Source of the DNA: Strigamia acuminata
Lineage: Eukaryota
Assembly (NCBI GenBank): GCA_949358305.1
Contig: OX442314.1
Span: 3,286,001-3,350,000, forward strand
DNA: 64,000 nt
Direction: 5' to 3'
This document shows positions 7,011 to 58,854 of the stretch, in pieces. The position numbers were made by a program, and so were the translations under genes. How positions within the stretch are numbered: the stretch's first letter is position 1; each line of letters begins with the position of its first letter. The notes under the pieces were generated by a model that saw only the letters and a program-made list of their open reading frames with translations, was not told the origin of the DNA and made no database searches.

Positions 7011-7058
7011 TTTTCCGTCGTATCGTCGCTATTTTCCGTCGATATCGGGTTTTAGCAG

Positions 7059-8121: not shown

Positions 8122-8554
8122 TATTAGTATGCGATTAATTATTTTGTCCGTTTCCCCATGCATTTCTGGATAGGCATGGCAGATATGTGTGTTGGCATCC
8201 TTTGGATACCCGTGTAGCGCATATTAATGCTACTCTTATGTGTTAACACACATATTCTATGTTTCTTGTGTCGTCTGCTTGAGAAAGCGATAAATGTTGT
8301 TTTCCGTGTTGTTTATCGGTTACTTATGCCTAGGTTAACAATTACTTATATTGTAAAGAACAAATCAATGCTTGTTGCTATTGATTTGTCCTATTGTCAT
8401 ATTTTGTATGGTTTGAGACCAATTAGCCTCAAACCCAGTTGCTTTTATGTTTTCATGTGATTAAAACATGGCGGGCGCGAAGTGCGAGCTCCCCGCACAT
8501 TTTAAGCTGGTTTCAACTCCTTTCCGATGTTTCCTGGCCTCCACGGACTTATCA
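8122..8554 (+). repeat. Copia A 3' LTR
   Basis: Follows the PPT; recognisably similar to the G LTR (reverse complement of 58855-59320); starts TATTAG (G has TGTTGG), ends TCA at the satellite. Confidence 0.75.
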
Positions 8555-8555
8555 A

Positions 8556-10132: not shown

Positions 10133-10289
10133 TCTGTTGTTTATCGATGCCAAACAGTCCTCCGTACTTGTTCTGCGCATTTCTAGTGTTTTCCTGCATC
10201 AAGCAGTGTTTTGTATGTATTTAGACTTTAAGTTATTATTTAGCACTGGGCATAATGCTGCCCCTATCAGTATTATATAAGTTTATTCG

Positions 10290-16299: not shown

Positions 16300-17185
16300 G
16301 TGGTAGCAGAGGTCTGGGGACGATCTGCTCTTATTTTTCACCTAATTTTCGGCGTAATTTTCGCGGGATTTGCGATTTTTGCGGCGAAATTCATTTTATT
16401 TTCAGATTTCGCCGATTTCGACGATTTCCGCCCGAATCTTTGCTTCGAAACGTTCGATCGACGTTCTGGACTGCCAGGGCAGTCTATTTCACCATTGCTT
16501 CGTTAATTTTGTCCGAAATTCCGCGGGATTCGCGAATTTCGCGACAAATTTTTGTTTTTTTCAGGTTTTTCGTCAATCTGGATTCACTTCTCCGCTTAGC
16601 ACGTTGCGGCGGATACAACGAGAATCCAATACTAGATTATTGGCCGCTTAGTTCCCCGGTGAACGGCGGTTATCACCGATCTTTTCAAGCGGACGAAGAG
16701 CCTCGAATTTTCGAGAAGAATTCGGACATTGACGTCCGAATTGCGCTTTCTCCAGCTTTTCGAGAAAGCTGCGCCGTGCCTTCATTTGCACGAGGATTGC
16801 ACCCGCGATCGATTCATCTATTTCTCCTTGTGTCGAAATTACTTGTTAGCATTAAGATAATATTTAAGGCTTTTGGGGGACATTTAGCATCGTATTCGCC
16901 CTTCGATCGAATCCGATCAAGCGATTACGTATTCTCCGGTAGTGCTTGTCGTGGTACAAGTGAGGTTTCCCGCGGGCCCAGGTGCACCGATCGGACCCTC
17001 TCAGACTGGCTACCGGAGGTTTTTGAATTCCTTCAGAAGGAATTGCCCAATTTGACGGTTTCCGCCTCGAAAGTGCTTCGCATCGAGTGTTGTGCTTCGT
17101 TTTCGTGCAGTGCTACGGTGTCTCCTGTGTGCCATTTCCCTGAGCCTGTGTTTTCGTCGCGTTGTTGTCAGTTTTCAACGCCACG

Positions 17186-26400: not shown

Positions 26401-27910
26401 CAAGTCTCTCATGCCATAATCTAGCTTCTTCTGGATTGGATGCCTTTTTGGTCGAGCTACTTGGTTCTTGTGTTTGTTGTGTTTGTTGTTCTCCAGTACT
26501 CGCCTTGTTGCTTTCTTTCAACTTCAATTTTTCAATGTCTGGTTTCGAATCACTTGTTTTGACATAATAAAGTCTGTCCTTCTTAACTGCTTCCATCAAT
26601 TGTCGTTTCCATTGTGGATCGTAGATTTTCACTACTCCTGAGCCAATTGCCACTTTGCATCTGGCTTCGTCGATGCAAGGTCCCGACAATAGATTTCTTC
26701 TCAAATCCGGCGCATAATATACCTTTTTCAATGTGATTGGAATTGTGTCATTTCCCACCACACACATTACACACACATCTCCTACTCCTTGGATTTGTAT
26801 CAAAGTCTTTTTATCTGCTTGGCTAATGGTGCCTTTCATTTCTTGGAAATTTACGAATTGATTCCTATCCTTACAGAAATGCCCAGTGGCCCCGGTATCA
26901 TAGATCCAACAACTGCTGGTTGCGCCGCACTGCAGCATTTCCTCTTCACTCAATTCGGTAAGGAAGCCAACATTCATCATCTCCGTGTCCAATTCTTCGA
27001 CAGTATTCGTGTTCTGGCTATTAGCTGGTGTGAGTTGGACTGTGCAATCCCTCGCCCAGTGTCCTGGCTGATTGCATCGGAAACACGGCCCCCGTGGTGA
27101 TGATCCGGTGGTGTTTCCTCGAAAATTTCTTGTGTTTTTGTTTCCACGATAATTCGATCGTCCAGCTCTTTGTCCTCCTCCAAACCCACGATTATTCTGG
27201 CTACTGTTCCCTTGTTGCTGTTGTTGCTGGAACTTTGGTGTGTTTTTGTTACTCTTCGTGTTGGAGTTGTTTGGCCCCATGCTGAAGGCATCGATAACTG
27301 ACCCCTGGCCAGAATCCCGCCTCTGTTGCGCAAGTCTGCTTTCTTCGGCCACTAACTCCACTTCCACCTTTTCCAGTGTAAAGTCTTTGTCATCCCATCT
27401 GTATATGCTCTGCACAATCGATTGAAACTCCTGTGGCAAATAACGAATCAACTGGAAGGCTTTATACAGATTGTCCAACTCGTGTTTAACGTCCGCTAAT
27501 TTCTTCGCGGCATTCCTAATTTTAGCGGCAAAAATCCCAATTGTTTCTGTGGTTGGATCATACTTAAGGCTGAAAAATTCATCCAATAGACGGATTATGC
27601 GTGCTCTGGATACCGGCTCAAAATTCGTTTTCAAGGTGATCCACGCCGTCTTGGCATCTTCAATCCCGTTGAGCAGCTCGTGGTACTGCTCCTCGATTGA
27701 ATAGTAAATCAAACTAAAAGCTCTTCCTTTTCGCAGCTGATAGTCGGATCGATCTCGCCATGACGCTCCAGGTGCTAGTGCTTCCTCTGTTCCATCTGTG
27801 AACGCCCAACAACCGTGGTGCATCAACAGAACCTTAATCTGTTGCTTCCAGCCGTCATAATTTGTGCGGTTCAACAACGTGACTTTTCTGTCCAATTTGT
27901 CCGAATCCAT
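23447..27910 (-). CDS. Copia D polyprotein, 1487 aa
   Basis: CFRCNQPGHWARDC, YDTGATGH, WHERLGH..CDVC, VYVDD, YSDSDY; first integrase Asp reads Asn (LHMNVCG). Confidence 0.94.
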   Translation of the reverse strand: MDSDKLDRKVTLLNRTNYDGWKQQIKVLLMHHGCWAFTDGTEEALAPGASWRDRSDYQLRKGRAFSLIYYSIEEQYHELLNGIEDAKTAWITLKTNFEPVSRARIIRLLDEFFSLKYDPTTETIGIFAAKIRNAAKKLADVKHELDNLYKAFQLIRYLPQEFQSIVQSIYRWDDKDFTLEKVEVELVAEESRLAQQRRDSGQGSVIDAFSMGPNNSNTKSNKNTPKFQQQQQQGNSSQNNRGFGGGQRAGRSNYRGNKNTRNFRGNTTGSSPRGPCFRCNQPGHWARDCTVQLTPANSQNTNTVEELDTEMMNVGFLTELSEEEMLQCGATSSCWIYDTGATGHFCKDRNQFVNFQEMKGTISQADKKTLIQIQGVGDVCVMCVVGNDTIPITLKKVYYAPDLRRNLLSGPCIDEARCKVAIGSGVVKIYDPQWKRQLMEAVKKDRLYYVKTSDSKPDIEKLKLKESNKASTGEQQTQQTQEPSSSTKKASNPEEARLWHERLGHIHFPSVQEMSKRDAVVGLPILDVPITQCDVCTLAKKKAISHKSLPGIRSKQPLELLHMNVCGAFSTPTLSGNRYFLTITDDFSRYSTVYLMKQKDEVFGIFQKHAKRIERLLGKSILAIRTDNGMEFCSNKFGEYLDQQGIAHERTNAYTPAQNGVSERLNQTLANGMRALIYDAQLEHRFWGEAILTFNYLRNRIAKLNSDKTPMELYYGRKPSLRHLRKFGSLCFVQKRVRDGKIDNKGLHGIMLGYSRITKGYRVWLPDFSKVIETSDVKFVESRRGVEGVLGLPERYTTYIDNLNDNLDNDNDRQYYSDEDVRPPLPPPQPIKKKEGEELPPLRLKFRLPEDALQHNLPAVQQPNILQQPGQVFPNPIPTIPALVWKKTEKARPTGQKDIEYTIEGYDKPRLRSIPEVKRYCVEHNLRIPEHLFDDKRKKKPFESNVTADDIDVDLEANHLEVFIPTRFEQVANAPEKQQWDQAMCDEIDTMHEREVWELVPPPPDTKIIGCKWIYTTKQNDEGKIARYKARLVAQGFSQVYGESYEETFSPVVDFSIVRFMFTLLVCMLKWSYIQADVKCAYLYAKLHKTVYMRQPKGFVCQGKENYVCKLLRAIYGLHQSGREWGIELEDTLLGLGLQHVNWCNCVYKYGNIAYLIVYVDDIVVFGKQYEDAMNVLNMVKTQFDLVILGQTKKLLGVEFPSYREQMVLHQKTYINKVLLRFDDHLKLVKIRSQPMVKSTILTKQQCPNTIEDFRIMEKISYRNLLGCLAFIESRTRPDLTYAINILSQFQSNPGWDHWIALLDLLSYLRTTKSLGLMLFPNDRVEVVGYSDSDYANNRDDRISVGGTIVLLGNSPVYWRTFKQRNVTLSTMEAEYVALTETVKDYIWILRVLYEIVPKLADKFNHHVLCDNISTVDFTKSNVENRKTKHIDVRYHFIRELVRRDNLQITHVGTKCNLADIFTKSVDKTDLVYFCNRFLVDMNVLSA
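25148..25258 (-). other. Divergent MBD-like domain in Copia D
   Basis: WKKTEKARPTGQKDIEYTIEGYDKPRLRSIPEVKRYC at the same position as in A, B, E, G; keeps W, R, D, RLRS and the EV..YC helix. Confidence 0.65.
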
Positions 27911-28683
27911 CCTGATTTACGATAGTAAACGACTCGAACTTGGTTTCACACACGGCCCGAACACTTGTTTCCCCCAAAAAACACTTTCTGTACTGGTAAA
28001 TCGCAACTAGGTGCAGTGTTGCGAGGTTAGTTCGCTCTTAAACTAAGTTAGTAAATCCTGTTACAACACTAAGCTAACAATATATCGAAAATTCAACAAA
28101 AATTCAGTAAAATGTTCGAAAGTGGTGTTTTCCTGACGTTGTCTAGCTGTAGTTCTAGTTGAATTACACTTCCCGTGTATTTTGCAGCTCAAAATTGTCT
28201 TTTCTCGTTGATTCTCTCGTCTTGTGTCGATTCCGCAAATTGTTCATTAAATTCCAGGTCGTTCCCGTGAAAATCCTTTTCCTCCGCTTGTATTATCCTG
28301 GATTCCCGTTCACACTTCGCGTGTGGTTGATGGGAATTTGCGCCGTCGTATAATCCACGTCGAGACGTTTTTTTTTAACCCAAAAATAACGACACGTCGT
28401 CGTTACGTATCGGCGCTTTCCACTCCCGAAATAAATTCCCGAAAACAGGAATAAACAAAAGAAAGAATTAATAATTGTATATAGTTCGAACCAATTATTG
28501 TTCCTGTGCTCCGTGGCGTCTAGTTGTCGCCTCCAAAGTCGTGGAATCCAGGCACAAACACAAATTGATGACATCCATCATGGGCGCCGCCATTTTGGAT
28601 GAAAATGAGGAAATTTTCCCTGCTGGCCTCAAATGACTCAAACTGCTCCAAAATCACACTGGACACTTTCCCTGCTTTATGTA

Positions 28684-42390: not shown

Positions 42391-43060
42391 TTTTGTGTGC
42401 TTAAAAATAAATACGGAGTACATTTTTAGATTAAAAATTTCAGTTTGTCTCAAAAACTCATTTTGACACTTAATTTCATAATTCAGTCTCAAAAAGTTAT
42501 GCATTCTACAAAGAAGTGTGGTATTTGCATCATCAAGGCAGAATTCAAGACTGTCAGACGGCAAGAAATGAGACGTCCTTGGTGCCAATAACAGCTGCTG
42601 CAGCAAAAGCTTGTGGACTAGGACTACTATGTATTCTATGCAAGATTTTATTTTAAAATGTTACATCCCGATTGTCTTACACTGGAGATTTACAATTGTC
42701 TTCAATCTTAGTAATGAGCTTAGGTTTCAATTAAAACAACATCCTTAGCAATGTGTGTTCTTGCATGAAACTGATGCTCTGTTTATTCTCCAAAGACAGA
42801 TTAAGCCAGAGAAAATGTCAAATTTTCTTTCCAAGTTTTTTTTCTTTGTGTTTAGCACAAAGATGTCTTCAGTGGACAAAATAAATGTAAACGAGGAAGT
42901 ACTACTGTCTGATATGTTTCATCTTGCAAGCAGAATTTTTTTTAGAAAGAATGTTTTTTCTTCTAAAATGGAAGTGAAAGGAATTCTGCCTCTCATGTGA
43001 ATTCTGCCTCTCATGTGAAATTCTCATGTTTATGAGTTTTTGACTTTCGACCTTATTCAT

Positions 43061-46028
43061 GAATCGGGGGTCGACCGACTCGAACCGGGGGTCGACCGAC
43101 TCGAACCGGGGGTCGACCGACTCGAACCGGGGGTCGACCGACTCGAACCGGGGGTCGACCGACTCGAACCGGGGGTCGACCGACTCGAACCGGGGGTCGA
43201 CCGACTCGAACCGGGGGTCGACCGACTCGAACCGGGGGTCGACCGACTCGAACCGGGGGTCGACCGACTCGAACCGGGGGTCGACCGACTCGAACCGGGG
43301 GTCGACCGACTCGAACCGGGGGTCGACCGACTCGAACCGGGGGTCGACCGACTCGAACCGGGGGTCGACCGACTCGAACCGGGGGGTCGACCGACTCGAA
43401 CCGGGGGGTCGACCGACTCGAACCGGGGGGTCGACCGACTCGAACCGGGGGGTCGACCGACTCGAACCGGGGGGTCGACCGACTCGAACCGGGGGTCGAC
43501 CGAATCGAACCGGGGGGTCGACCGACTCGAACCGGGGGGTCGACCGACTCGAACCGGGGGGTCGACCGCCTCGAACCGGGGGGTCGACCGCCTCGAACCG
43601 GGGGGTCGACCGACTCGAACCGGGGGGTCGACCGACTCGAACCGGGGGTCGACCGACTCGAACCGGGGGGTCGACCGACTCGAACCGGGGGTCGACCGAC
43701 TCGAACCGGGGGTCGACCGACTCGAACCGGGGGTCGACCGACTCGAACCGGGGGTCGACCGACTCGAACCGGGGGTCGACCGACTCGAACCGGGGGTCGA
43801 CCGACTCGAACCGGGGGTCGACCGACTCGAACCGGGGGTCGACCGACTCGAACCGGGGGTCGACCGACTCGAACCGGGGGTCGACCGACTCGAACCGGGG
43901 GTCGACCGACTCGAACCGGGGGTCGACCGACTCGAACCGGGGGTCGACCGACTCGAACCGGGGGTCGACCGACTCGAACCGGGGGTCGACCGACTCGAAC
44001 CGGGGGTCGACCGACTCGAACCGGGGGTCGACCGACTCGAACCGGGGGTCGACCGACTCGAACCGGGGGTCGACCGACTCGAACCGGGGGTCGACCGACT
44101 CGAACCGGGGGTCGACCGACTCGAACCGGGGGTCGACCGACTCGAACCGGGGGTCGACCGACTCGAACCGGGGGTCGACCGACTCGAACCGGGGGTCGAC
44201 CGACTCGAACCGGGGGTCGACCGACTCGAACCGGGGGTCGACCGACTCGAACCGGGGGTCGACCGACTCGAACCGGGGGTCGACCGACTCGAACCGGGGG
44301 TCGACCGACTCGAACCGGGGGTCGACCGACTCGAACCGGGGGTCGACCGACTCGAACCGGGGGTCGACCGACTCGAACCGGGGGTCGACCGACTCGAACC
44401 GGGGGTCGACCGACTCGAACCGGGGGTCGACCGACTCGAACCGGGGGTCGACCGACTCGAACCGGGGGTCGACCGACTCGAACCGGGGGTCGACCGACTC
44501 GAACCGGGGGTCGACCGACTCGAACCGGGGGTCGACCGACTCGAACCGGGGGTCGACCGACTCGAACCGGGGGTCGACCGACTCGAACCGGGGGTCGACC
44601 GACTCGAACCGGGGGTCGACCGACTCGAACCGGGGGTCGACCGACTCGAACCGGGGGTCGACCGACTCGAACCGGGGGTCGACCGACTCGAACCGGGGGT
44701 CGACCGACTCGAACCGGGGGTCGACCGACTCGAACCGGGGGTCGACCGACTCGAACCGGGGGTCGACCGACTCGAACCGGGGGTCGACCGACTCGAACCG
44801 GGGGTCGACCGACTCGAACCGGGGGTCGACCGACTCGAACCGGGGGTCGACCGACTCGAACCGGGGGTCGACCGACTCGAACCGGGGGTCGACCGACTCG
44901 AACCGGGGGTCGACCGACTCGAACCGGGGGTCGACCGACTCGAACCGGGGGTCGACCGACTCGAACCGGGGGTCGACCGACTCGAACCGGGGGTCGACCG
45001 ACTCGAACCGGGGGGTCGACCGACTCGAACCGGGGGGTCGACCGAATCGAACCGGGGGGTCGACCGACTCGAACCGGGGGGTCGACCGACTCGAACCGGG
45101 GGTCGACCGACTCGAACCGGGGGGTCGACCGACTCGAACCGGGGGGTCGACCGACTCGAACCGGGGGGTCGACCGACTCGAACCGGGGGGTCGACCGACT
45201 CGAACCGGGGGGTCGACCGACTCGAACCGGGGGGTCGACCGACTCGAACCGGGGGGTCGACCGACTCGAACCGGGGGGTCGACCGACTCGAACCGGGGGT
45301 CGACCGACTCGAACCGGGGGTCGACCGACTCGAACCGGGGGTCGACCGACTCGAACCGGGGGTCGACCGACTCGAACCGGGGGTCGACCGACTCGAACCG
45401 GGGGTCGACCGACTCGAACCGGGGGTCGACCGACTCGAACCGGGGGTCGACCGACTCGAACCGGGGGTCGACCGACTCGAACCGGGGGTCGACCGACTCG
45501 AACCGGGGGTCGACCGACTCGAACCGGGGGTCGACCGACTCGAACCGGGGGTCGACCGACTCGAACCGGGGGTCGACCGACTCGAACCGGGGGTCGACCG
45601 ACTCGAACCGGGGGTCGACCGACTCGAACCGGGGGTCGACCGACTCGAACCGGGGGTCGACCGACTCGAACCGGGGGTCGACCGACTCGAACCGGGGGTC
45701 GACCGACTCGAACCGGGGGTCGACCGACTCGAACCGGGGGTCGACCGACTCGAACCGGGGGTCGACCGACTCGAACCGGGGGTCGACCGACTCGAACCGG
45801 GGGTCGACCGACTCGAACCGGGGGTCGACCGACTCGAACCGGGGGTCGACCGACTCGAACCGGGGGTCGACCGACTCGAACCGGGGGTCGACCGACTCGA
45901 ACCGGGGGTCGACCGACTCGAACCGGGGGTCGACCGACTCGAACCGGGGGTCGACCGACTCGAACCGGGGGTCGACCGACTCGAACCGGGGGTCGACCAA
46001 CTCGAATCGGGGGTGGACCAACTCGAAT
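43061..46028. repeat. 21-bp CpG-rich tandem array 2, about 140 copies, with 22-bp (G6) variant blocks
   Basis: Same unit as array 1; G6 units cluster at about 43379-43670 and 45009-45280. Confidence 0.99.
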
Positions 46029-46345
46029 CTGTTGTTTATCGATGCCAAACAGTCCTCCGTACTTGTTCTGCGCATTTCTAGTGTTTTCCTGCATCAAGCA
46101 GTGTTTTGTATTTATTTAGACTTTAAGTTATTATTTAGCACTGGGCATAATGCTGCCCCTATCAGTATTATATAAGTTTATTCGCGAATTTGCGATAAAT
46201 TGTGCCACAGAAGTTGAAAACAGACATGTTGGGACAATTATGGCGCGCGTTACGTATGGAAGCGGGAATCGTAGAACGAGTAGAAAGCGACGACGAGGAT
46301 GACGACGACAAAGAAGAAGAAGAAGAAAAGAACGATTTAGAAAAC
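46029..46345 (+). repeat. Duplicated junction fragments (copies of about 10134-10306 and 14311-14459)
   Basis: Near-identical to the right flank of array 1, fused at AAATT to a piece of Gypsy F gag. Confidence 0.92.
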
Positions 46346-49300
46346 ATAGGTTAAATCGGGCCTGGTTCTTGATTCAATAAATGCCAAACATCCCAGTAGA
46401 TTCCGGTAGGAAATTTTCTCCATAATCCTAAAGTCTTCGATCGTGTTGAAACATTGTTGTTTGGTGAGAATGGTAGATTTTACCATTGGCTGCGATCAAA
46501 TCTTCACTAACTTCAAGTGGTCGTCGAATCTCAACAAGACTTTATTGATGTAGGTCTTTTGATGTAACACCATCTGCTCTCTATATGAGGTAAATTCGAC
46601 GCCTAACAATTTTTTGTCTGTCCAAGAATGACCAAATCGAATTGTGTTTTGACCATGTTTAACACATTCATGGCATCTTCATATTGCTTTCCAAAAACTA
46701 CAATATCGTCCACGTAGACTATTAAATATGCGATGTTTCCATATTTATAGACGCAGTTACACCAATTTACGTGTTGCAGTCCGAGTCCAAGCAAAGTGTC
46801 CTCCAATTCAATTCCCCATTCACGTCCTGACTGGTGCAGACCGTAAATTGCACGAAGAAGTTTACAGACGTAATTCTCCTTGCCTTGGCAAACGAAACCC
46901 TTTGGCTGGCGCATATAAACAGTTTTGTGCAACTTCGCGTAGAGGTAAGCACACTTCACGTCGGCTTGGATGTAACTCCACTTCAACATGCAGACAAGCA
47001 ACGTGAACATAAATCGAACGATAGAGAAGTCGACTACTGGTGAAAATGTTTCTTCGTACGACTCGCCGTAGACTTGTGAGAAGCCTTGCGCGACAAGTCT
47101 CGCTTTGTAGCGTGCGATTTTCCCCTCATCGTTCTGTTTGGTGGTGTATATCCACTTGCAGCCAATTATCTTGGTGTCTGGCGGCGGTGGAACCAACTCC
47201 CATACCTCACGCTCGTGCATCGTATCAATCTCGTCGCACATCGCTTGATCCCACTGTTGTTTTTCAGGTGCATTGGCGACTTGTTCAAAGCGCGTTGGTA
47301 TAAATACTTCGAGATGATTCGCTTCCAAGTCAACGTCAATGTCATCCGCAGTTACATTCGACTCGGAAGGCTTCTTTTTCCTTTTGTCGTCAAAAAGGTG
47401 TTCCGGAATGCGAAGATTGTGCTCCACACAATAGCGTTTGACCTCCGGAATTGAACGCAGTCTTGGTTTGTCGTATCCCTCAATTGTATATTCAATGTCC
47501 TTCTGCCCTGTTGGTCTCGCCTTCTCGGTCTTTTTCCATACGAGAGCTGGTATGGTCGGAATTGGGTTTGGAAAAACCTGTCCAGGTTGTTGCAAAATGT
47601 TTGGTTGCTGCACTGCTGGTAAGTTGTGTTGCAATGCATCTTCGGGCAGTCTAAACTTCAACCTAAGTGGAGGTAACTCTTCTCCTTCTTTCTTCTTGAT
47701 AGGTTGTGGCGGGGGTAGCGGTGGCCTCACATCCTCGTCGGAGTAATATTGACGGTCATTATCGTTGTCCAGATTATCATTGAGATTGTCAATGTATGTC
47801 GTATATCTCTCCGGTAGGCCCAGCACGCCTTCAACTCCGCGCCTGCTCTCAACGAATTTAACGTCACTGGTCTCAATAACTTTTGAAAAATCAGGTAACC
47901 AGACTCTGTATCCCTTTGTAATTCTGGAATATCCTAACATAATTCCATGCAGTCCTTTGTTATCGATTTTTCCATCACGTACTCGCTTTTGCACAAAACA
48001 CAGACTTCCAAATTTTCGTAAATGCCGAAGTGATGGTTTGCGGCCATAATATAACTCCATTGGTGTTTTGTCTGAGTTTAACTTCGCTATCCTATTCCTG
48101 AGGTAGTTGAAAGTTAAAATTGCCTCGCCCCAAAAGCGATGTTCCAGTTGTGCGTCATAAATGAGCGCTCGCATGCCGTTTGCTAGTGTCTGGTTCAATC
48201 TTTCAGATACGCCGTTTTGGGCGGGCGTGTACGCATTTGTCCGTTCATGAGCGATCCCTTGTTGGTCAAGATACTCTCCAAATTTATTGGAGCAAAACTC
48301 CATCCCATTGTCCGTGCGGATGGCCAGGATTGATTTTCCCAGTAGTCTCTCAATCCGTTTTGCGTGTTTTTGAAAAATGCCGAACACTTCATCCTTCTGT
48401 TTCATCAGGTAAACCGTGGAATAACGGGAAAAATCATCCGTAATGGTCAGGAAATATCTATTTCCTGAAAGTGTTGGCGTTGAAAAAGCCCCGCATACAT
48501 TCATGTGCAAAAGTTCCAACGGTTGCTTCGACCTAATTCCTGGTAAAGATTTATGAGAGATGGCCTTTTTCTTCGCCAGCGTGCAAACGTCACACTGCGT
48601 GATTGGCACGTCCAAAATCGGTAGTCCAACTACTGCATCCCGCTTGCTCATTTCTTGCACGCTTGGGAAGTGGATGTGTCCAAGTCTCTCATGCCATAAT
48701 CTAGCTTCTTCTGGATTGGATGCCTTTTTGGTCGAGCTACTTGGTTCTTGTGTTTGTTGTGTTTGTTGTTCTCCAGTACTCGCCTTGTTGCTTTCTTTCA
48801 ACTTCAATTTTTCAATGTCTGGTTTCGAATCACTTGTTTTGACATAATAAAGTCTGTCCTTCTTAACTGCTTCCATCAATTGTCGTTTCCATTGTGGATC
48901 GTAGATTTTCACTACTCCTGAGCCAATTGCCACTTTGCATCTGGCTTCGTCGATGCAAGGTCCCGACAATAGATTTCTTCTCAAATCCGGCGCATAATAT
49001 ACCTTTTTCAATGTGATTGGAATTGTGTCATTTCTCACCACACACATTACACACACATCTCCTACTCCTTGGATTTGTATCAAAGTCTTTTTATCTGCTT
49101 GGCTAATGGTGCCTTTCATTTCTTGGAAATTTACGAATTGATTCCTATCCTTACAAAAATGCCCAGTGGCCCCGGTATCATAGATCCAACAACTGCTGGT
49201 TGCGCCGCACTGCAGCATTTCCTCTTCACTCAATTCGGTAAGGAAGCCAACATTCATCATCTCCGTGTCCAATTCTTCGACAGTATTCGTGTTCTGGCTA

Positions 49301-49686
49301 TTAGCTGGTGTGAGTTGGACTGTGCAATCCCTCGCCCAGTGTCCTGGCTGATTGCATCGGAAACACGGCCCCCGTGGTGATGATCCGGTGGTGTTTCCTC
49401 GAAAATTTCTTGTGTTTTTGTTTCCACGATAGTTCGATCGTCCAGCTCTTTGTCCTCCTCCAAACCCACGATTATTCTGGCTACTGTTCCCTTGTTGCTG
49501 TTGTTGCTGGAACTTTGGTGTGTTTTCGTTACTCTTCGTGTTGGAGTTGTTTGGCCCCATGCTGAAGGCATCGATAACTGACCCCTGGCCAGAATCCTGC
49601 CTCTGTTGCGCAAGTCTGCCTTCTTCGGCCACTAACTCCACTTCCACCTTTTTCAGTGTAAAGTCTTTGTCATCCCATCTGTATAT
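46345..49686 (-). pseudogene. Copia D2 polyprotein fragment (gag C-part to RT, MBD-like at about 47428-47538)
   Basis: ORF 46603-49647 is almost identical to the D protein. Confidence 0.93.
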
Positions 49687-50205: not shown

Positions 50206-50688
50206 GCCCCCTCCTTTAGATTTTTGGACCCCAAAAACAAATTATTTAACTAAACAAACTCCCTTGTTGTTCATGCTTATATATGAGTTCATTCCCTGTT
50301 ATTCATGCTTACTTTCACAAAACTTATACTTTAAACAATATTTACTAAAAACAATTTCAAATTACAAAAATTCAAAATCATATGTCAATTATTACACAAA
50401 TACACTTTCAAGATTAACACTTTTTGATATTTTTACACTTATATTACTTTTTTTTCAGTTTTCCTATTTTCTATACAACCTAATAATTCAAAAAAAATAA
50501 TATACACTACATTCAATGTGAATGAAAATGAAAACAATAACAAAATTAAGAAAAACAATATCAACTTCAAATAATAAAAAAAATAATGTCTCTGCTCGCT
50601 CCAGTACACCTGGGCTCACATCATTGACGAATAATACAAAATAAATAATACACAAAAAAAATAATTTCACACAACACTTAATGTCCAA

Positions 50689-50907
50689 TTAAGGCTGGTT
50701 TTCCTCCTTTTCGAATGGGATCAACTTCTCGTGTAAGATCTCGTACACTATTCGCTGGCGCAAATCGATCGGATGGCCATGGCGCATGTTGTCCCTGTCT
50801 TCAATATATCGGCGGGCAAAATATCAGATAGTGGGCCCGCAGCTGTCACCGTCAAGCTGCTGCATGCGGGGCGGGTCCCACTTCTCATAGCCCCGTGGAA
50901 ACACCAT
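50689..50907 (-). pseudogene. Ulp1/SENP (C48 protease)-like C-terminal fragment in the 3' region of Gypsy H
   Basis: Manual translation MVFPRGYEKWDPPRMQQLDGDSCGPTI*YFARRYIEDRDNMRHGHPIDLRQRIVYEILHEKLIPFEKEENQP; one internal TGA at 50824-50826. Confidence 0.6.
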
Positions 50908-51470
50908 TCAAGTCTAATATGTGCAGAAAATAAATTAAACTCATTAATTACAATTGATTACTGGCCAATACAATTCATGTTCACAATCAATTTGTCTAAA
51001 TTTCGTTAAACTTTTAACTTTATACAATATTCAAATTATTTCATCTAAACCAATTAAATATTCATAGCTATTTCTATTAAATTTTAAAATTAAATGTCAA
51101 GTTAACATTTCAAAAATGTGCGAAGTTCTCTTTATTCGCTGGAAAAATGGCGATAGATTCGTTCCGTTCTGTTCACTTTCGGCACTTTTATTAATATTAT
51201 CCAAAACTGGAGAAAAATGTCTCAAAATTGTTCAAATCAACTAGTAAATTCGAGTTATTCTTGGTTCACTGCAAATAACTTGCGTTCGCCTCAAAAAACA
51301 AGAAAATACAACTTCAAAATCGTGTCACGTCTCGTCTGCGTTCATATTAACTTTCGTCAATTAAAAGTACCTACTTTCACAGAAAATATGCGAAATCCTC
51401 GTCAATCACACTCGGAGAATAACAATTCCCTTCGCTCACTGCAAATAACTTGCGTTCACTTAAAGAAAAG

Positions 51471-54400
51471 CTAGTAAAATGCAGTGTAATCTTGGCGTGG
51501 TTGCGATCTAAGTCGTCGTGACCGGAAATCACTTTCAGCAGGACGTCGCGCATGCGTATCGGCGCCAACAGCATTTGCGACACCTGGTGATGGTTTCTGC
51601 AACCGATTCTTCTTGCTTTCGTCTGGCGACGATTTTAGCAACTGATTTCGCTGTTCTAACTCAACTTCCTTTTTCACTCGACGTGCCTCAATTTCTTTCG
51701 GCCCGTAAATTGCCTTCAATCGCTCCCTTTCAGTTAGAACCGGCGAATCCGACGTTTTATCTCCGGATTCAAAGAAACTCCTCAACGAAATTTGATCATC
51801 ATCATCAATAAACCTTTCCTTCGCTCCTACTTTAGGCCTATCTCGCGGATCATCGTCCTTCTTCACAATTTCCGCATTTTGATCGTCTTTTTGCGAACTT
51901 CCTTGCACTTCATCAGAAAATGTTACTTTCTTCAATGGTAGATCCTGCAGAATAGTTTCTGGAATTTCCTCTCGCGGCTTATATGGTTTTAAACGCTCAA
52001 CATTGACAATACTAGTTTTCTTTCCTGATGAATTCCTTACTTCATAATCGTTTGGCGCTGTGCGTCGAACTATTTCATATGGTCCAGAAAATGGTGGCAG
52101 GAGTTTTTCGCTTAACCCTACTTTCCTATTCGGAGTTTTCAAGTAAACTAATTCCCCTGGTTCGAATTCCACCACAATTCTGTCCAAATCAAATCTTCTC
52201 TTGCTTTTCTCACTCTGCCATTCTAGTCTTTCGTTGGCAATTTTCCGCATCTCCCGCATAAATCTAGAAGTGCGAAGAGTGAATTCCTTTCGAGGAAGAT
52301 TCAAGTTCACATCCACACTCAAATCAACTTCATAACCTTTCAACAAATAATATGGGGTATATCCAGTTGTTTCATGGACTGCTGAATTATAGGAGAAAAT
52401 GACAAATGGTAAAAATTCATCCCAATCTGTGTGATCTTTATTAGTATAACATGTCAACATTTTGGCAAATGTTGCATTGAATCTTTCCGTTAATCCGTTG
52501 GTCCTTGGATGGTACCCGGAAGTAGATCTGTGCTGGGATTTAAACAGTGCTGATACTTCATTGATCATTTCGTTCCTGTACTCTGTCCCCTTATCGCTGA
52601 GTATCTCGCGTGGACTTCCCTCTTTGAGCATCACCTCGAATACAAGAGTTTTCGCTGCTTCCAACGCTGTACATGCTGGAGCCGCTCTGGCGATGACTGC
52701 ACGCGACAAGTAATCAGTGATAACAAAAACATATTTATTTCCACTATTTGAAACTGGAAAGCTTCCTAACGTGTCTATACCAATCCTCTCAAACGGTCTT
52801 GAAATCGTCGACCAAGGTTGTAATAAACCTTTTTGTGGAGTGGTCATTGACTTACTTCCTGCGCAATGTGGACAACTGAGAACGTAATTCCTTACGTCCC
52901 TGTATATCCTCGGCCAAAAGAATCTTACTCTAATTCTTTTCCACGTCTTATTTAGGCCGAGATGAGCACCTACGAGCCCGTCATGCATTTCTTCTAACAC
53001 TTGCTTACGTAAATGCTGCGGTACTACTAAAAGGTTTCCTTCCATGTTTAGAGAATTGTAACTTTTCTTTCTAAACAACGTGTTATCCAGGAGAACGAAC
53101 TGTTTTAAAGGACGTTTCCTGTTTCTTGGAAGTTGCTCAATGTTCTCCATTGCGGTGATGATCTCCAAAATTTTCTCATCCTTACGCTGTTCTACAGGTA
53201 AGTTGAGTTTTTCGAGAAGTAGTAAGGGAATAATTTCTTTTTCTTCCTCACCAATCTCTTCTTGGATTCGGCTAAGAGCATCTGCATCCGTGTGCTTCTT
53301 GCCTGACTTATGCATCACATCGTAGTCGTAATCTACCAGTTGTAAACTCCACCTGGCCAATCTACCGTTGGGATTTTTCACCTTATTCAGCCATTGTAAC
53401 GCAGAATGGTCTGTCACAATTGTAAATTTCCTACCGTAAAGATATGGTCTGTACTTGTTAATGCCGAATATTATGGCTAAACATTCTCTTTCCGTAGCTG
53501 TGTAATTTTGTTCCGCTGTACTTAACAATCGACTGGCGTAACAAATCACATGTTCTTGCTTGTTAATACGCTGCTTCAAAATTGCACCAAGCCCATAAGC
53601 ACTTGCATCCGTAGATACAATGAATGGCTCTGCAAAATTTGGATGTGCCAATACTGGTACCGTAACTAAAGCTGTCCGTAAGGCCTTAAACGCTGTTTCC
53701 TGTGGTGGTCCCCAATCAAAAGCTTCATCTTTGCGAGTTAAGTTGGCTAAGGGCTTAGATACGTCCGCAAATCCTGGAATAAACTTTCGATAATACGAAC
53801 ATAAACCCAAAAACCCTCTCAACTGCTTCAAATTTGTTGGTTTTGGAAATTTAGCTACACTTTCCAAATTACGTGGATCAGGTGACACTCCATCAGAATC
53901 AACTATGTGGCCTAAATATTTGATGGTATTAGTACCAAACGTACATTTGCTAAGTTTAACCTTTAAGTTTGCCAACCGCAGCTTGCTGAAGACAGCATCG
54001 AGATCCTGAAGATGCTGATCAAATGTCTTTGAAAATATTATAAGGTCGTCAATATAAGCTATACAGACCTTGCCAAGAAGATTACCAAGCACCTTGTTCA
54101 TCAATTTTTGAAACGCAGCTGGGCTATTACATAATCCCATTCCTAGGACGTTAAACTCAAAATGTCCGCTTGAAGTGGTAAACGCTGTTTTTTCACGATC
54201 CTGTTCATCTATTTCGACTTGATAATATCCTTGAATAAGATCCATCATCGAAAAATACTGGGCCCCTGCCAGTTGGTCCAATGTATCGTCAATCCTGGGC
54301 AGTGGGTATACCATTTTCTTTGTGATCGCGTTTAACCTCCTCCAATCGACACAAAATCTCCATTTACCGTCTCTTTTCTTGATGAGAAGTACTGGTGCAC

Positions 54401-55523
54401 TCCATGGACTTTCTGATTCCCTAATGACTCCCATCTCAAGCAACTTTCTGGTCTCTTCTGCCTCTACTTCTTTTTCTGCGATTGAACGTCTATAAGGCTG
54501 CAAATGTATTGGATCATGGTCCCCCGTATCAATTTTGTGTTTAAATGTTGTTACTCTACCTAAGTCTTTGTCTGTGGCTGCAAATCTATCCTGATTCCTT
54601 TGAAGTAACTGCTTCATCTGCTCTTGTTGGCTTTTGTTCATCTTATCTTTAGCAATCGAGGAGTCAAAGTCAAAGCAATGTACTTGGTTTTCATCTGTCA
54701 ACTCAACCGCTTTGGTTGAGGAGTCAGTGCAATACACTTGCTTCTCATCCAACAACCCAATTTCGATAATGTAATACGCCTTACCAATTGCAGATTTCTC
54801 CTTCAGAAAGACTGATTTGTTTGTTGGATTAGCCACACGCAGAACTCCTTTACCATACTCAAAATTTGTTAATGTTTTACAACACAAAATTCCAAACCTA
54901 TCTATTACATTTCCTAGAGGTTCCATAAACATTTCTGTGGTTAGTTTTGTATTTAAATAAACTGGTATAACGCATTCATGCATTGGTGGAATTGAGATAT
55001 TCTTCATTACTCTGGCAACATAACTCTGGTCCGAAAATGATCTATTTATTGGAAAAACTGCTTCTTCTACTCCACTATCATTGTTCCGGCCCACAAAGAT
55101 TTTTTGTAAATCATAATCGACGACAGTTCTCGTTGACCTCATGAATGGATCCCCCAATAAAAGCTGATGATGAAATCCTGACACTATTAACACTTCCACT
55201 CTATAGGTCAGTTTTCCAATTGCAATGTTCATTTTTGTTTTACCCACTGGAACTACCAAATCCTTTCCTATCCCACGTAGCCTAATGTTAGGGCTGGGTG
55301 AATAATCCAATTGAAGAGCTATTGCAACTTCTTCGCTTAGCAGGTTTCGTTTGGCTCCAGTGTCCATTACCGCTTTTATTTCCATTTCTTTTACAATTAC
55401 TGGGATCTCCAACAATGATTCTGATACCTGAACGTCAATTATAATTATCTTACTCTTCTTCTTTTGTCTTTTCCTTTTCTTTGGGTGGCAACAATTTCTC
55501 TGTGGCCGTTCAACTAGTTTTTC
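51471..55523 (-). CDS. Gypsy H pol (protease, RT, RNase H, integrase), entered by -1 frameshift
   Basis: MDTGA, YIDD, STDAS, ERECLAI, HTDADALSR, GIDTLG, SDKGTEY, NGLTERFN, GPY; frame is open up to the slippery site at 55517-55523. Confidence 0.94.
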   Translation of the reverse strand, partial: EKLVERPQRNCCHPKKRKRQKKKSKIIIIDVQVSESLLEIPVIVKEMEIKAVMDTGAKRNLLSEEVAIALQLDYSPSPNIRLRGIGKDLVVPVGKTKMNIAIGKLTYRVEVLIVSGFHHQLLLGDPFMRSTRTVVDYDLQKIFVGRNNDSGVEEAVFPINRSFSDQSYVARVMKNISIPPMHECVIPVYLNTKLTTEMFMEPLGNVIDRFGILCCKTLTNFEYGKGVLRVANPTNKSVFLKEKSAIGKAYYIIEIGLLDEKQVYCTDSSTKAVELTDENQVHCFDFDSSIAKDKMNKSQQEQMKQLLQRNQDRFAATDKDLGRVTTFKHKIDTGDHDPIHLQPYRRSIAEKEVEAEETRKLLEMGVIRESESPWSAPVLLIKKRDGKWRFCVDWRRLNAITKKMVYPLPRIDDTLDQLAGAQYFSMMDLIQGYYQVEIDEQDREKTAFTTSSGHFEFNVLGMGLCNSPAAFQKLMNKVLGNLLGKVCIAYIDDLIIFSKTFDQHLQDLDAVFSKLRLANLKVKLSKCTFGTNTIKYLGHIVDSDGVSPDPRNLESVAKFPKPTNLKQLRGFLGLCSYYRKFIPGFADVSKPLANLTRKDEAFDWGPPQETAFKALRTALVTVPVLAHPNFAEPFIVSTDASAYGLGAILKQRINKQEHVICYASRLLSTAEQNYTATERECLAIIFGINKYRPYLYGRKFTIVTDHSALQWLNKVKNPNGRLARWSLQLVDYDYDVMHKSGKKHTDADALSRIQEEIGEEEKEIIPLLLLEKLNLPVEQRKDEKILEIITAMENIEQLPRNRKRPLKQFVLLDNTLFRKKSYNSLNMEGNLLVVPQHLRKQVLEEMHDGLVGAHLGLNKTWKRIRVRFFWPRIYRDVRNYVLSCPHCAGSKSMTTPQKGLLQPWSTISRPFERIGIDTLGSFPVSNSGNKYVFVITDYLSRAVIARAAPACTALEAAKTLVFEVMLKEGSPREILSDKGTEYRNEMINEVSALFKSQHRSTSGYHPRTNGLTERFNATFAKMLTCYTNKDHTDWDEFLPFVIFSYNSAVHETTGYTPYYLLKGYEVDLSVDVNLNLPRKEFTLRTSRFMREMRKIANERLEWQSEKSKRRFDLDRIVVEFEPGELVYLKTPNRKVGLSEKLLPPFSGPYEIVRRTAPNDYEVRNSSGKKTSIVNVERLKPYKPREEIPETILQDLPLKKVTFSDEVQGSSQKDDQNAEIVKKDDDPRDRPKVGAKERFIDDDDQISLRSFFESGDKTSDSPVLTERERLKAIYGPKEIEARRVKKEVELEQRNQLLKSSPDESKKNRLQKPSPGVANAVGADTHARRPAESDFRSRRLRSQPRQDYTAFY

Positions 55524-56863
55524 GAATTTTGGGCCTTCGTTTGTGCCTGAGGATTAGGGTTTCCATCTTGCTGTTCACCTCTTCTCCTCTTTTTATTCCA
55601 CTTCCAGCTGTTACTTCCACCTCTTTCCTGTTGCTGTTGTTGCTGTTGTTGTTGTTGCCTGGGTGGATTGTAAAACTCACAGCTGAAATGATGATAACAT
55701 CCGCATGAACGGTTATTAGAATCATTACTATTGTTAGTATTATAATTATTGTAATTAGGGTTAAAGCCTTGTCTACTGCCTCTACTTCTACCTCCTTGAT
55801 TATACTGTCCCCTATTCCTTATTGGCGCATACCACTGATTTTGTATCAGTATCGACTCTTCATCCAGCAAATCCACTGACTCTGCCTCTAACAATCGCCG
55901 CTTTAAATCAGCGACTTCAGCTATTAACTCAGCGTGGGTTGGTTGGGTCCCCACGGTTCCACTCAGTTTACCTGCTGTTACCGGGATCACCTTCTCATCC
56001 ACGATTTTTTTAAACGCTGCAAGTAGAACATCTGCTGGGTCTTTTACTTTATGACTTTCGAATAACTTAATTCTCTCTTCCATATCCGCCAATGTCTTCG
56101 GGAATACAGTAATCAACATCTTTTGCATTTCCGGCTTCAATCCTTGAAAAATATAATTAATCTTCAAATTCTCAGGTAATTCTGGTCGCGCATAAGCACA
56201 TTCGGCCAAGACCTTCTTCATAAATGCATCGGCTTTACCATCTGAATGCCTCATAAAATGAAGAGTGTTCAATACATTTTCCTGGCTTTTCCTGAACTTC
56301 TTTTCGATTTGTGGCTTCCATTCTGTCCAAGTCCAGGTTGGATTCGTTTTATATTGTTCCACAAACCATGCCAGTCCGTCAGTCTTAAGGGCTAACGGCA
56401 ATTGTTTCACTCGTTCATCATCTGATGCTATTGTAGCTTCATAAGCCACAAGCCATTGGTCGATGTTACCTTTTTCTGTATCATAACAAACAACTTCGCG
56501 CTTTTGTATCAAAATACCCTTGAGAAGATCAGTTAAAACTGTTGTTGGATCCGCCATCTTGGATACAGTTCCTTTTGATGTGGATTCCTTTAATTTTACT
56601 GGCGTTAACAATTCAAATACTGATTGAAAAGACTTTGATTGCGCAAATTTTAATGGGGTTGCAAAAACAAGTTTATCATCCAATGTGGAAGTATTTTGCT
56701 CAACCTCCTTTATTCCCGGTTCCGACTGTGAAGTTGTTTTCCTTTTTCTAACCGCTACTTTGGAATCATCCACTGTGCTTACTAATTCTCTTTCTAATTC
56801 TTGATTCTTTAAGTCCAGTAGATTATCCACTTGCGCCTGTGATAACTTAACTGGCTGATCCAC
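55514..56863 (-). CDS. Gypsy H gag (start uncertain: GTG 56863 or ATG 56558)
   Basis: Capsid-like region (LAWF..WTEWK..F; YIFQGLKPE), RG/Q-rich tail, ends G-AAA-AAC-TAG. Confidence 0.85.
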   Translation of the reverse strand: MDQPVKLSQAQVDNLLDLKNQELERELVSTVDDSKVAVRKRKTTSQSEPGIKEVEQNTSTLDDKLVFATPLKFAQSKSFQSVFELLTPVKLKESTSKGTVSKMADPTTVLTDLLKGILIQKREVVCYDTEKGNIDQWLVAYEATIASDDERVKQLPLALKTDGLAWFVEQYKTNPTWTWTEWKPQIEKKFRKSQENVLNTLHFMRHSDGKADAFMKKVLAECAYARPELPENLKINYIFQGLKPEMQKMLITVFPKTLADMEERIKLFESHKVKDPADVLLAAFKKIVDEKVIPVTAGKLSGTVGTQPTHAELIAEVADLKRRLLEAESVDLLDEESILIQNQWYAPIRNRGQYNQGGRSRGSRQGFNPNYNNYNTNNSNDSNNRSCGCYHHFSCEFYNPPRQQQQQQQQQQERGGSNSWKWNKKRRRGEQQDGNPNPQAQTKAQNSKN

Positions 56864-57522
56864 TGTTAAGCCTTTAATTATACCTTCACTTTATTCACAG
56901 AACGCTCTTAACAACTCACAACTTTTACTAACCCTGAAATAAACTTATGCACAATTAATTATCACAATTAGTCACTAATTCAAAATAAATTTCAATAACA
57001 AAAAAAAATTATTATTATTTCCTGAAAAATAATCAAAATTAATCATCAAAATCAACATAAACTTCTACATAAACCAAAAAGAAAACATTTCCTATAATTG
57101 AATCATTATTAATATAAGTTTTATCATTAAACAAACATTGAATATTCACCACTCTTAACCTCCAAAACAACCTCATTTTATTATAAATTCAACTTGAGTA
57201 AATATCTTTAATAAATTCAAATATGTAAATCTTATTAGTGCACTATAATTAAATATTCAACTGCAATTGACCCTAAAAGAAAGTTTTCACAATGAGTCAC
57301 CTTTCAATCTTATCACTCATGCAAATGAGTTTGCAACTTTTCAAAATTTTATATGACTTTTATTTGAATTTTACTGAATTTTAATGCAAATTTGTACGGA
57401 TTTCAAATGGATCTTCTAATTTTAGCAAATAACTGGCCAATTTCACTTTACTTTTACTACTTTTCACTACTTTTAGCCAATTAATGGGTCTCAAATAGAA
57501 AGAACCGCAATCTCCACCACTT

Positions 57523-58041
57523 TGTTACGTGGCCAGACTGACTACTGTTTGACCACGTAAATACTTTACTATTAAACTGGGGGTTTGCAATTGCACTAAG
57601 TTAAACTAGCATTTAAACTGTGTTGCTAATAAGAAGGTAATGAAGAGGACTCATTGTATTATTATTAAAATATAACAGTATGTTTATTAAATCATAAATA
57701 CAATCTGAATTGAACCAAAGATTAACTTAAAACTAAATCTTATAAAACTATCTTAAATCTAGTAAGCATGAATAACTTTGGTGGGTGAAGAACCTCAAGA
57801 TGCCGCGGCAGTACCTGCCCGACAACCTCTCGGAATGAAAGCTCGGAATGAACTGACGTTTCAGTTCTCCTCATCAGCCAAGTAAACTTGGGTGATTCTA
57901 CTATTACTTAATGGGTAAATTAGTGAGATCATTCGCTTAAGGCGAACTCTAGTGAGGGTTTACAGCATTAATTCGAATCGTTTAGTTACGGAAGCGAGGC
58001 GGCGACAACCGGTTCACAGTGTGCTCGTCAACCTCGTAACA
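57523..58041 (-). repeat. Gypsy H 5' LTR
   Basis: Direct repeat of 49687-50205. Confidence 0.97.
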
Positions 58042-58045
58042 ATAT

Positions 58046-58549
58046 GCTCTGCACAATCGATTGAAACTCCTGTGGCAAATAACGAATTAACTGGAAGGCT
58101 TTATACAGATTGTCCAACTCGTGTTTAACGTCCGCTAATTTCTTCGCGGCATTCCTAATTTTAGCGGCAAAAATCCCAATTGTTTCTGTGGTTGGATCAT
58201 ACTTAAGGCTGAAAAATTCATCCAATAGACGGATTATGCGTGCTCTGGATACCGGCTCAAAATTCGTTTTCAAGGTGATCCACGCCGTCTTGGCGTCTTC
58301 AATCCCGTTGAGCAGCTCGTGGTACTGCTCCTCGATTGAATAGTAAATCAAACTAAAAGCTCTTCCTTTTCGCAGCTGATAGTCGGATCGATCTCGCCAT
58401 GACGCTCCAGGTGCTAGTGCTTCCTCTGTTCCATCTGTGAACGCCCAACAACCGTGGTGCATCAACAGAACCTTAATCTGTTGCTTCCAGCCGTCATAAT
58501 TTGTGCGGTTCAACAACGTGACTTTTCTGTCCAATTTGTCCGAATCCAT
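58046..58549 (-). pseudogene. Copia D2 gag N-terminus
   Basis: Identical to the first about 169 aa of the D protein, then runs into the H LTR. Confidence 0.93.
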
Positions 58550-58854
58550 CCTGATTTACGATAGTAAACGACTCGAACTTGGTTTCACACACGGCCCGAA
58601 CACTTGTTTCCCCCAAAAAACACTTTCTGTACTGGTAAATCGCAACTAGGTGCAGTGTTGCGAGGTTAGTTCGCTCTTAAACTAAGTTAGTAAATCCTGT
58701 TACAACACTAAGCTAACAATATATCGAAAATTCAACAAAAATTCAGTAAAATGTTCGAAAGTGGTGTTTTCCTGACGTTGTCTAGCTGTAGTTCTAGTTG
58801 AATTACACTTCCCGTGTATTTTGCAGCTCAAAATTGTCTTTTCTCGTTGATTCT

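What the first reader, a model, noticed from the sequence alone, without database searches (positions are those of the whole stretch)
50689..50935. Hidden Ulp1/SENP SUMO-protease-like fragment downstream of pol in Gypsy H
Seen (absent from the ORF track): a GC-richer island in the AT-rich 3' region translates in the element sense to ...QQLDGDSCGPTI*YFARRYI...LRQRIVYEILHEKLIP. Established: C48 proteases have Q-x-(N/D)-x-x-(D/S)-C-G at the catalytic Cys and SENP1-type enzymes end in R-x-R-(M/I)-V-x-E-I-L-H-x-K-L; Ulp1 domains are known cargo of several DNA transposons, and SUMO is used in animal TE silencing. A pyrimidine tract plus AG (about 50914-50935) precedes it like a splice acceptor, in the env position. 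I could not find the His/Asp half and there is an internal TGA. Inference: relic, or spliced/read-through remnant, of a captured anti-silencing deSUMOylase in an LTR element.
Basis: partly seen in the sequence, partly recalled or inferred. Interest (0 to 1): 0.7.

Follow-up and report, generated by a model that had tools for sequence, protein, structure and literature searches.

The report
Retrotransposon's relic SUMO-protease gene
A young jumping gene carries the broken tail end of what is likely a SUMO-protease gene in the slot where retroviruses keep their envelope gene, and a distant relative carries such a gene whole in the same slot, which would give these elements a possible, untested way to strip the host's silencing tags.

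Summary
The fragment is real but is a relic. A GC-rich, codon-patterned island (50907-50689, minus) in a young Gypsy element reads as the last ~50 residues of a Ulp1/SENP (C48) protease. On its own the match is weak: PDB top 8 hits are SENP1/2, best E=0.01; Pfam finds nothing. The deciding evidence is a relative. L001 (pol 49% identical, same starred pol clade) carries an intact 360-aa C48 ORF3 with His-Asp-Gln-Cys (Pfam E=3e-23) between pol and a look-alike PPT/LTR junction, behind an acceptor-like AG. The internal TGA is not seen in contigs from three runs, so it is private or rare. No His/Asp half was found anywhere in this element, so it cannot be an active protease, with or without the stop; read-through or spliced rescue is not supported. 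Best reading: decayed env-slot SUMO-protease gene. An anti-silencing role of the intact form is inferred, untested. Ulp1 cargo is published for DNA transposons and NeSL/Utopia; nine paper searches found none in LTR elements. This scan noted Ulp1 in fungal LTR elements before (unchecked notes). Only one intact relative was found, and no RNA data.

The parts
57523..58041 (-). 5' LTR (TGTTACG...CGTAACA), identical to the 3' LTR
57505..57519 (-). primer-binding-site-like TGGTGGAGA..., 3 nt after the LTR (tRNA-Ala match is recalled, not tested)
55514..56890 (-). gag ORF, 458 aa stop to stop, open; no Pfam hit, gag-like Atlas neighbours
51471..55553 (-). pol ORF, 1360 aa, PR-RT-RNase H-integrase, open
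50916..51470 (-). AT-rich spacer (GC 0.30) between pol and the island, 14-22 stops per sense frame, holds a 39-bp imperfect direct repeat; no C48 similarity
50914..50940 (-). pyrimidine tract and AG (AG at 50915-50914), splice-acceptor-like, 6 nt before the ATG; use not shown
   Evidence: same layout in L001 and L004
50689..50907 (-). 72-codon relic ORF3: C-terminal part of a Ulp1/SENP (C48) domain, Gln motif at 50862, Cys codon 50841-50839, R-x-R-I-x-x-E-I-L helix from 50760
50824..50826 (-). in-frame TGA of this copy; not seen in the laid contigs of three runs
   Evidence: table 3
50206..50217 (-). polypurine tract; PPT-LTR junction closely resembles that of L001
49687..50205 (-). 3' LTR
49683..49686 (.). 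target-site duplication ATAT (second copy 58042-58045); the empty site is present in the sister Copia near 27400

Best explanation
The island is likely the decayed 3' end of a third gene of this Gypsy lineage, a SUMO-type (Ulp1/SENP) protease in the envelope slot, which survives whole in a relative (L001) and is predicted to be inactive here because its His/Asp half is missing. Shown: the layout, the C48 match of the relative's ORF3, the clade link, the missing half. Inferred: ORF3 would be made from a spliced subgenomic RNA using the AG just before its ATG, as other ORF3s are. The intact protein has a basic, NLS-like N-terminus and would go to the nucleus. It would most likely cut SUMO from co-repressors recruited to the element's chromatin (SUMO is the link from piRNA targeting to heterochromatin in Drosophila), easing silencing; I put about 0.4 on that role against others such as acting on Gag/integrase or DNA-repair factors. 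In the window's lineage most of ORF3 was lost, the family kept multiplying with gag and pol under purifying selection, and this copy's lineage gained a further stop.
For: L001 ORF3 (P0049): PF02902 E=3.1e-23; PDB SENP5/2/1 E=8e-17 to 2e-15 with H245, D262, Q310, C316 aligned; Atlas feature and structure neighbours are C48 clusters. It starts 16 nt before the pol stop and ends 156 nt before a PPT and TG start. PPT-LTR junctions of window and L001 are near alike. Window pol and L001 pol are 48.8% identical over RT-INT and sit in a 7-row clade with SH-aLRT 100 (quick tree, 36 rows). In the window's pol-to-LTR interval the best tblastn match to P0049 is the island, sense strand, to the C-terminal 47 residues, E=0.003; 7 of 3000 shuffles of the 72-mer reach its score on P0049 (relaxed gaps chosen after inspection). 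A shared V-x-x-R-G-Y-E stretch lies before the Gln motif in both: 153 of 20000 shuffles (post hoc). Both ORF3s have higher GC3 than their pol (0.68 vs 0.37; 0.51 vs 0.36). Pyrimidine tract, AG, 1-6 nt, ATG precedes ORF3 in the window, L001 and the TatD ORF of L004. All laid depth at the stop codon differs from the window in X1 (11 contigs), X2 (8) and X3 (3). Of 25 listed gag/pol variants classified, 19 are synonymous. His/Asp half absent.
Against: The fragment alone is not significant: Pfam 0, homologue search 0, 1.8-billion-protein search 0; PDB E rises to 0.13 with the longer frame; 8 of 300 block shuffles of the 3' interval match P0049 as well as the real one. Only one intact relative: P0049 found only itself among 1632 candidates at E<=1e-8, and its three sources may be one data set. 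The 3' DNA of the other four clade members (P0003, P0004, P0006, P0008) could not be fetched, so 'clade-wide ORF3' is not shown. L001 lacks its 5' end, so no LTR pair is seen. The fragment is about as close to human SENP1 as to P0049. The island sits 564 nt after pol whereas L001's ORF3 overlaps the pol stop. No transcript, splice or activity evidence; nothing tests anti-silencing.
Confidence: 0.7

Rival explanations
1. Independent capture: the element picked up the last exon of a host SENP gene with its intron end and 3' UTR, unrelated to L001's ORF3, and carries it as passenger DNA.
For: AT-rich intron-like DNA, AG, GC-rich exon, stop, T-rich tail is how a last exon looks; match ends exactly at the SENP C-terminus; GC (0.54) is higher than anything else in the element; similarity to SENP1 is at least as good as to P0049.
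Against: It needs two C48 captures into the same slot of one pol clade, while 0 of the 27 other loci match P0049; the RGYE stretch is shared with L001; the same spacer-AG-ATG layout precedes other ORF3s.
Confidence: 0.12
2. The 72-codon ORF is a maintained mini-protein made from a spliced RNA, working without catalysis (for example as a decoy that binds SUMO or a host SENP partner).
For: It has its own acceptor-like site, ATG and stop in one frame; other copies lack the internal stop; the only other listed variant in the island is synonymous; codon pattern is still strong; contigs of diverged copies touch the island's 3' part (table 5).
Against: This copy, with identical LTRs and open gag/pol, has a stop in it; 6 of its 9 copy-specific gag/pol differences are synonymous (p about 0.01), so its parent lineage was active and may have carried the stop. 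Weak start context (T at -3). The last helices of a C48 domain are unlikely to fold alone (inference). One variant is no test of selection.
Confidence: 0.08
3. Chance: the island is non-C48 sequence that resembles SENP1 by accident.
For: E=0.01 found by eye in 64 kb x 6 frames; Pfam and two large searches are blank; 8 of 300 shuffles reach the P0049 score.
Against: Codon periodicity in the same frame, two motifs at the right spacing, and a whole C48 gene in the same slot and strand of a clade-mate, found by a search that used only pol.
Confidence: 0.06
4. The island is the last exon of a working protease whose His/Asp half is spliced in from elsewhere, with read-through at the TGA.
For: Acceptor-like AG; stop absent in other copies.
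Against: No C48 N-terminal half in any sense frame of the element or six frames of the 3' interval; an in-frame TGA lies 3 nt after the AG.
Confidence: 0.04

Closest known systems
Ginger1 and Mutator/MULE DNA transposons with Ulp1 (pfam02902) (Bao, Kapitonov, Jurka 2010, PMC2836005; passages read)
   Same: A mobile element carries a C48 domain; Ginger1 even has a Gypsy-like integrase; a role in transposition or DNA repair was proposed.
   Different: Those are cut-and-paste DNA transposons with Ulp1 fused to the transposase. Here the carrier is a true LTR retrotransposon (RT, RNase H, LTRs, PPT) and C48 is a separate ORF after pol.
NeSL and Utopia-1_TSP non-LTR retrotransposons (Kojima and Jurka 2015, PMC4640811; passages read)
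   Same: Retrotransposon-borne Ulp1-like cysteine protease in animals.
   Different: Non-LTR elements; domain is N-terminal in the single polyprotein, not a stand-alone ORF3 in the env slot.
Non-env ORF3s of bdelloid rotifer LTR retrotransposons: GDSL esterase, DEDDy exonuclease, TM proteins (Rodriguez et al. 2017, PMC5408684; passages read)
   Same: Enzyme genes in the env slot, family-specific, gained and lost, typically expressed from spliced messages.
   Different: No Ulp1/SUMO/C48 in that paper's main text (0 occurrences); different lineages.
Cellular SENP1/2/3/5 SUMO proteases (PDB)
   Same: Closest solved structures to both the fragment and L001 ORF3; catalytic residues kept in L001.
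   Different: Window copy has only the Gln/Cys-bearing C-terminal part; substrate of the element-borne enzyme is untested.
Fungal LTR elements with a Ulp1 gene noted earlier in this scan (e1-9810503, e1-7136705; unchecked AI notes)
   Same: C48 gene carried inside an LTR retrotransposon.
   Different: Those notes describe a second Cys-rich gene and a dispersed DNA word; neither was found here (word enrichment null in window element and L001).

Membership tests
Peptidase C48 (Ulp1/SENP), window fragment | Pfam PF02902 score above the curated cut-off (20.7 bits) | tested here: not met
   0 families for the 72-mer and six frames of the 3' interval
Peptidase C48 (Ulp1/SENP), window fragment | Catalytic His and Asp upstream of the Cys | tested here: not met
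   no such half in any scanned frame
Peptidase C48 (Ulp1/SENP), window fragment | Gln...Cys-Gly motif and C-terminal helix in SENP order and spacing | tested here: met
   QQLDGDSCG and RQRIVYEIL align to SENP1 177-226 with one gap, E=0.01 and to P0049 310-356
Peptidase C48 (Ulp1/SENP), L001 ORF3 (P0049) | PF02902 above cut-off and His-Asp-Cys plus Gln | tested here: met
   83.2 bits, E=3.1e-23; H245, D262, Q310, C316 aligned to SENP5
Peptidase C48 (Ulp1/SENP), L001 ORF3 (P0049) | Cleaves SUMO (rather than NEDD8 or ubiquitin) | not testable with these tools
   best PDB hits are SENP5/2/1/3 and Ulp1; no assay
Ty3/Gypsy LTR retrotransposon (window element) | gag, then PR-RT-RH-INT order; LTR pair TG...CA; PBS; PPT; TSD | tested here: met
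Ty3/Gypsy LTR retrotransposon (L001) | ORF3 lies inside the element, between pol and a paired 3' LTR | tested here: inconclusive
   PPT, TG start and junction alike to the window's, but the contig lacks the 5' LTR
Env-slot ORF3 of LTR elements | Expressed from a spliced subgenomic RNA | not testable with these tools
   acceptor-like site by sequence only; no RNA run listed
Ginger1 DNA transposons | TIR element without RT, Ulp1 fused to transposase | tested here: not met
   element has RT, RNase H and direct LTRs; C48 is a separate ORF
VANDAL/VANC-like self-recognition system (as in earlier fungal notes) | Dispersed element-specific DNA word plus a Cys-rich partner gene | tested here: not met
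   no 6-8-mer significantly enriched after correction in either element; no second extra ORF

The most novel reading that the evidence does not exclude
An animal-type Gypsy lineage carries an active SUMO protease as a stand-alone accessory gene in the env slot and uses it as a counter-defence, removing the SUMO marks that link small-RNA targeting to heterochromatin; the window catches a high-copy family that has lost most of the gene, so gain and loss of a retrotransposon anti-silencing enzyme can be compared within one clade.
Probability: 0.3. Interest if true: 0.8.

Novelty: new variant of a known kind. Interest (0 to 1): 0.55.

Why it matters
Transposon-borne Ulp1 domains have been known since the 2000s but their job is still a guess, and few element-encoded suppressors of animal piRNA/heterochromatin silencing are known (own knowledge). 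SUMO is a required switch in Drosophila piRNA silencing (10.1101/2021.07.27.453956, abstract read). A free-standing, intact, 360-aa natural ORF (P0049) from an LTR element is a ready reagent to ask whether a transposon enzyme removes that switch. It also adds a SUMO protease to the list of non-envelope genes in the env slot. The window's own copy is only a fossil pointing to this.

Tried and rejected
No whole genome is held, so copies could not be counted or aligned. No RNA holder listed: no evidence either way on expression or splicing. Variant spectrum across the island could not be obtained beyond the 40 rows of 673 shown, so selection on the 72-codon frame is untested. Fragment searches blank: near-length homologues, 50% representatives, Pfam. 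None of 47 pol relatives has a fused C48 motif. Viral-contig scans: none with the wide pol alignment, none with P0049, 3 distant loci with the narrow alignment, none with the PPT-LTR pattern. Prokaryote-genome scan gave 7 distant loci, none with C48. Pfam on 3' regions was run on 4 of the first 18 loci only (L001, L004, L006, L007); all 28 were tested with P0049 by tblastn; 17 of 28 have at least 700 bases after the pol match. The tree is the quick one; rows with under 600 aligned columns and L019-L028 (fetched later) were left out. 'EHELYW' upstream of the island was considered as the His motif and rejected: wrong spacing, stops between, no score. Self-recognition DNA word: not found. Joints that skip part of the island (50796-50983, 50819-50952) are 'between: not known' and were not read as splicing. 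No complex prediction was run. Literature: searches found no paper on Ulp1 in an LTR element; term look-ups in PMC6431247, PMC6338049, PMC13524379, PMC5408684 gave 0 for Ulp1/C48, and PMC12903978 gave 0 for LTR. Supplements were not read, and Repbase Reports and GyDB cannot be searched here, so a prior annotation there is possible.

Full report
Setting. The window is a nest of LTR retrotransposons. The element in question lies on the minus strand, 58041-49687. It has two identical LTRs bounded by TGTTACG...CGTAACA, a PBS-like site, gag (458 aa), pol with PR-RT-RNase H-integrase (1360 aa), a PPT, and an ATAT target duplication; it sits in a Copia whose empty sister copy is near 27400. It is therefore a young Gypsy insertion with open gag and pol. 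The host is not given. Named pol relatives are chelicerates, a fish and a sea star, so an animal host is likely but inferred.

Observation. The island has GC 0.54 between flanks of 0.25 and a codon pattern of 0.58/0.35/0.68 in that frame (permutation p=0.00035, flanks flat). Read with X at the stop, the 72-mer ranks SENP1 and SENP2 in places 1-8 of 13 PDB hits, best E=0.01, aligned to the last 50 residues of SENP1. Pfam gives nothing, nor do two large protein searches. Taken alone this is a weak match for something picked by eye from 64 kb.

The relative that settles it. A metagenome scan with a pol alignment, blind to the island, returned 18 loci. The closest, L001, encodes right after pol an intact 360-aa ORF with a full Peptidase_C48 domain (E=3.1e-23 for P0049). 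Its best solved relatives are SENP5, SENP2 and SENP1, with His245, Asp262, Gln310 and Cys316 in place; Atlas neighbours agree. Its N-terminus is basic and NLS-like (sequence; inference). A pyrimidine tract and AG lie 5 nt before its ATG, and 156 nt after its stop come a PPT and a TG start whose junction is nearly the window's. L001 pol is 99.3% identical to P0005, and P0005 and P0049 share a longest contig of 7189 bases, which suggests one element, possibly from one data set. In a quick tree of 36 pol rows, the window, P0003, P0004, L001/P0005, P0006 and P0008 form a clade with SH-aLRT 100. L001 is the only member whose 3' DNA I could read. None of the other 27 loci matches P0049.

Link between fragment and relative. 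Within the window's 1.27-kb pol-to-LTR interval, the best match to P0049 is the island, in sense, to the last 47 residues of the domain (E=0.003; 8 of 300 block shuffles do as well). With relaxed gaps a shared RGYE stretch joins the alignment (7 of 3000 and 153 of 20000 shuffles; both post hoc). Each test is modest; together with slot, strand, codon pattern and the SENP ranking they make C48 ancestry likely (about 0.9) and descent from a shared ORF3 the simplest account (about 0.7 for the relic reading).

State of the gene. Three public runs of one organism hold the element at high depth, in several diverged versions. At the stop codon all laid depth differs from the window in all three runs (11, 8 and 3 contigs), and the codon is not a stop there. 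Contigs drop rare variants, so the stop is private or rare, not proven unique. The His/Asp half was not found in six frames of the 3' interval, the leader, or the off-frames of gag and pol, and a TGA follows the AG in frame. So the family form is at best a 72-residue piece that cannot be catalytic. Of 25 listed gag/pol variants classified, 19 are synonymous, including 6 of 9 that set this copy apart: the lineage was transposing under selection on gag and pol while lacking a whole ORF3. Whether the 72-codon frame is itself selected rests on one synonymous variant and is open.

How it likely works. ORF3s of LTR elements are typically separate units from spliced messages (PMC5408684, passage), and the spacer-AG-ATG layout recurs in L001 and in a TatD ORF of L004. 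The intact form would be a nuclear SUMO protease. In Drosophila, SUMOylation of Panoramix links Piwi to heterochromatin (10.1101/2021.07.27.453956, abstract and outline); SUMO-dependent KAP1-SETDB1 silencing of ERVs is noted in PMC4303303 (search listing only). Removing SUMO there is the most natural benefit, but Bao et al. proposed a DNA-repair role for transposon Ulp1 domains (PMC2836005, passages). Neither is tested here.

Comparison and novelty. Ulp1 cargo is published for Ginger1 and Mutator and NeSL/Utopia; enzyme ORF3s are published for rotifer LTR elements. Nine searches found no report of Ulp1 in an LTR element; supplements, Repbase Reports and GyDB were not seen. Two earlier unchecked notes of this scan describe it in fungal LTR elements with extra features that are absent here. 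I rate it a new variant of a known kind.

Verdict. Observation confirmed; interpretation partly supported. The window holds a dead remnant; the interest lies in the intact env-slot SUMO protease of its relative, known from one locus and without functional data. Interest 0.55; 0.8 if anti-silencing is shown.

Noticed in passing
L004:3745-5520 (+): A distant Gypsy-type pol is followed by an AT-rich spacer, a pyrimidine tract-AG-G-ATG and a 591-aa ORF with a TatD DNase domain (Pfam E=1.9e-40): possibly another enzyme in the env slot. No LTR seen on the contig.
   Followed up: partly
window 2580-7028 (-) and 17144-22144 (+): Two Copia polyproteins carry a methyl-CpG-binding (MBD, PF01429) domain between integrase and RT (E=8e-7 above cut-off; E=0.001 below).
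   Followed up: no
window 8400-10300 and 42900-46200: Near-perfect 21-bp tandem arrays, at least 193 overlapping 300-nt matches, open in several frames; Copia copies are inserted beside them.
   Followed up: no
window 23447-28215, 46345-49686 and 58042-58854: Two copies of one Copia, 99.6% alike; one is intact, the other is split by the Gypsy studied here.
   Followed up: partly
L005, L006, L007 after pol: gag-like ORFs (CCHC knuckle) lie downstream of pol rather than upstream; tandem copies or an unusual gene order.
   Followed up: no
L011:6033 onward; P0010, P0017, P0020, P0023: Other pol relatives outside the window's clade carry env-like ORFs or membrane-anchored tails, so the slot holds different cargo across neighbouring clades.
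   Followed up: no
window 51260-51298 and 51430-51468: 39-bp direct repeat (85% alike) in the spacer after pol; a second pyrimidine tract-AG lies right after the pol stop (about 51459).
   Followed up: no
L022-L027: Gypsy-type pol sequences inside prokaryotic MAG records, most likely eukaryotic contamination; L025 and L026 lie on contigs over 1 Mb.
   Followed up: no
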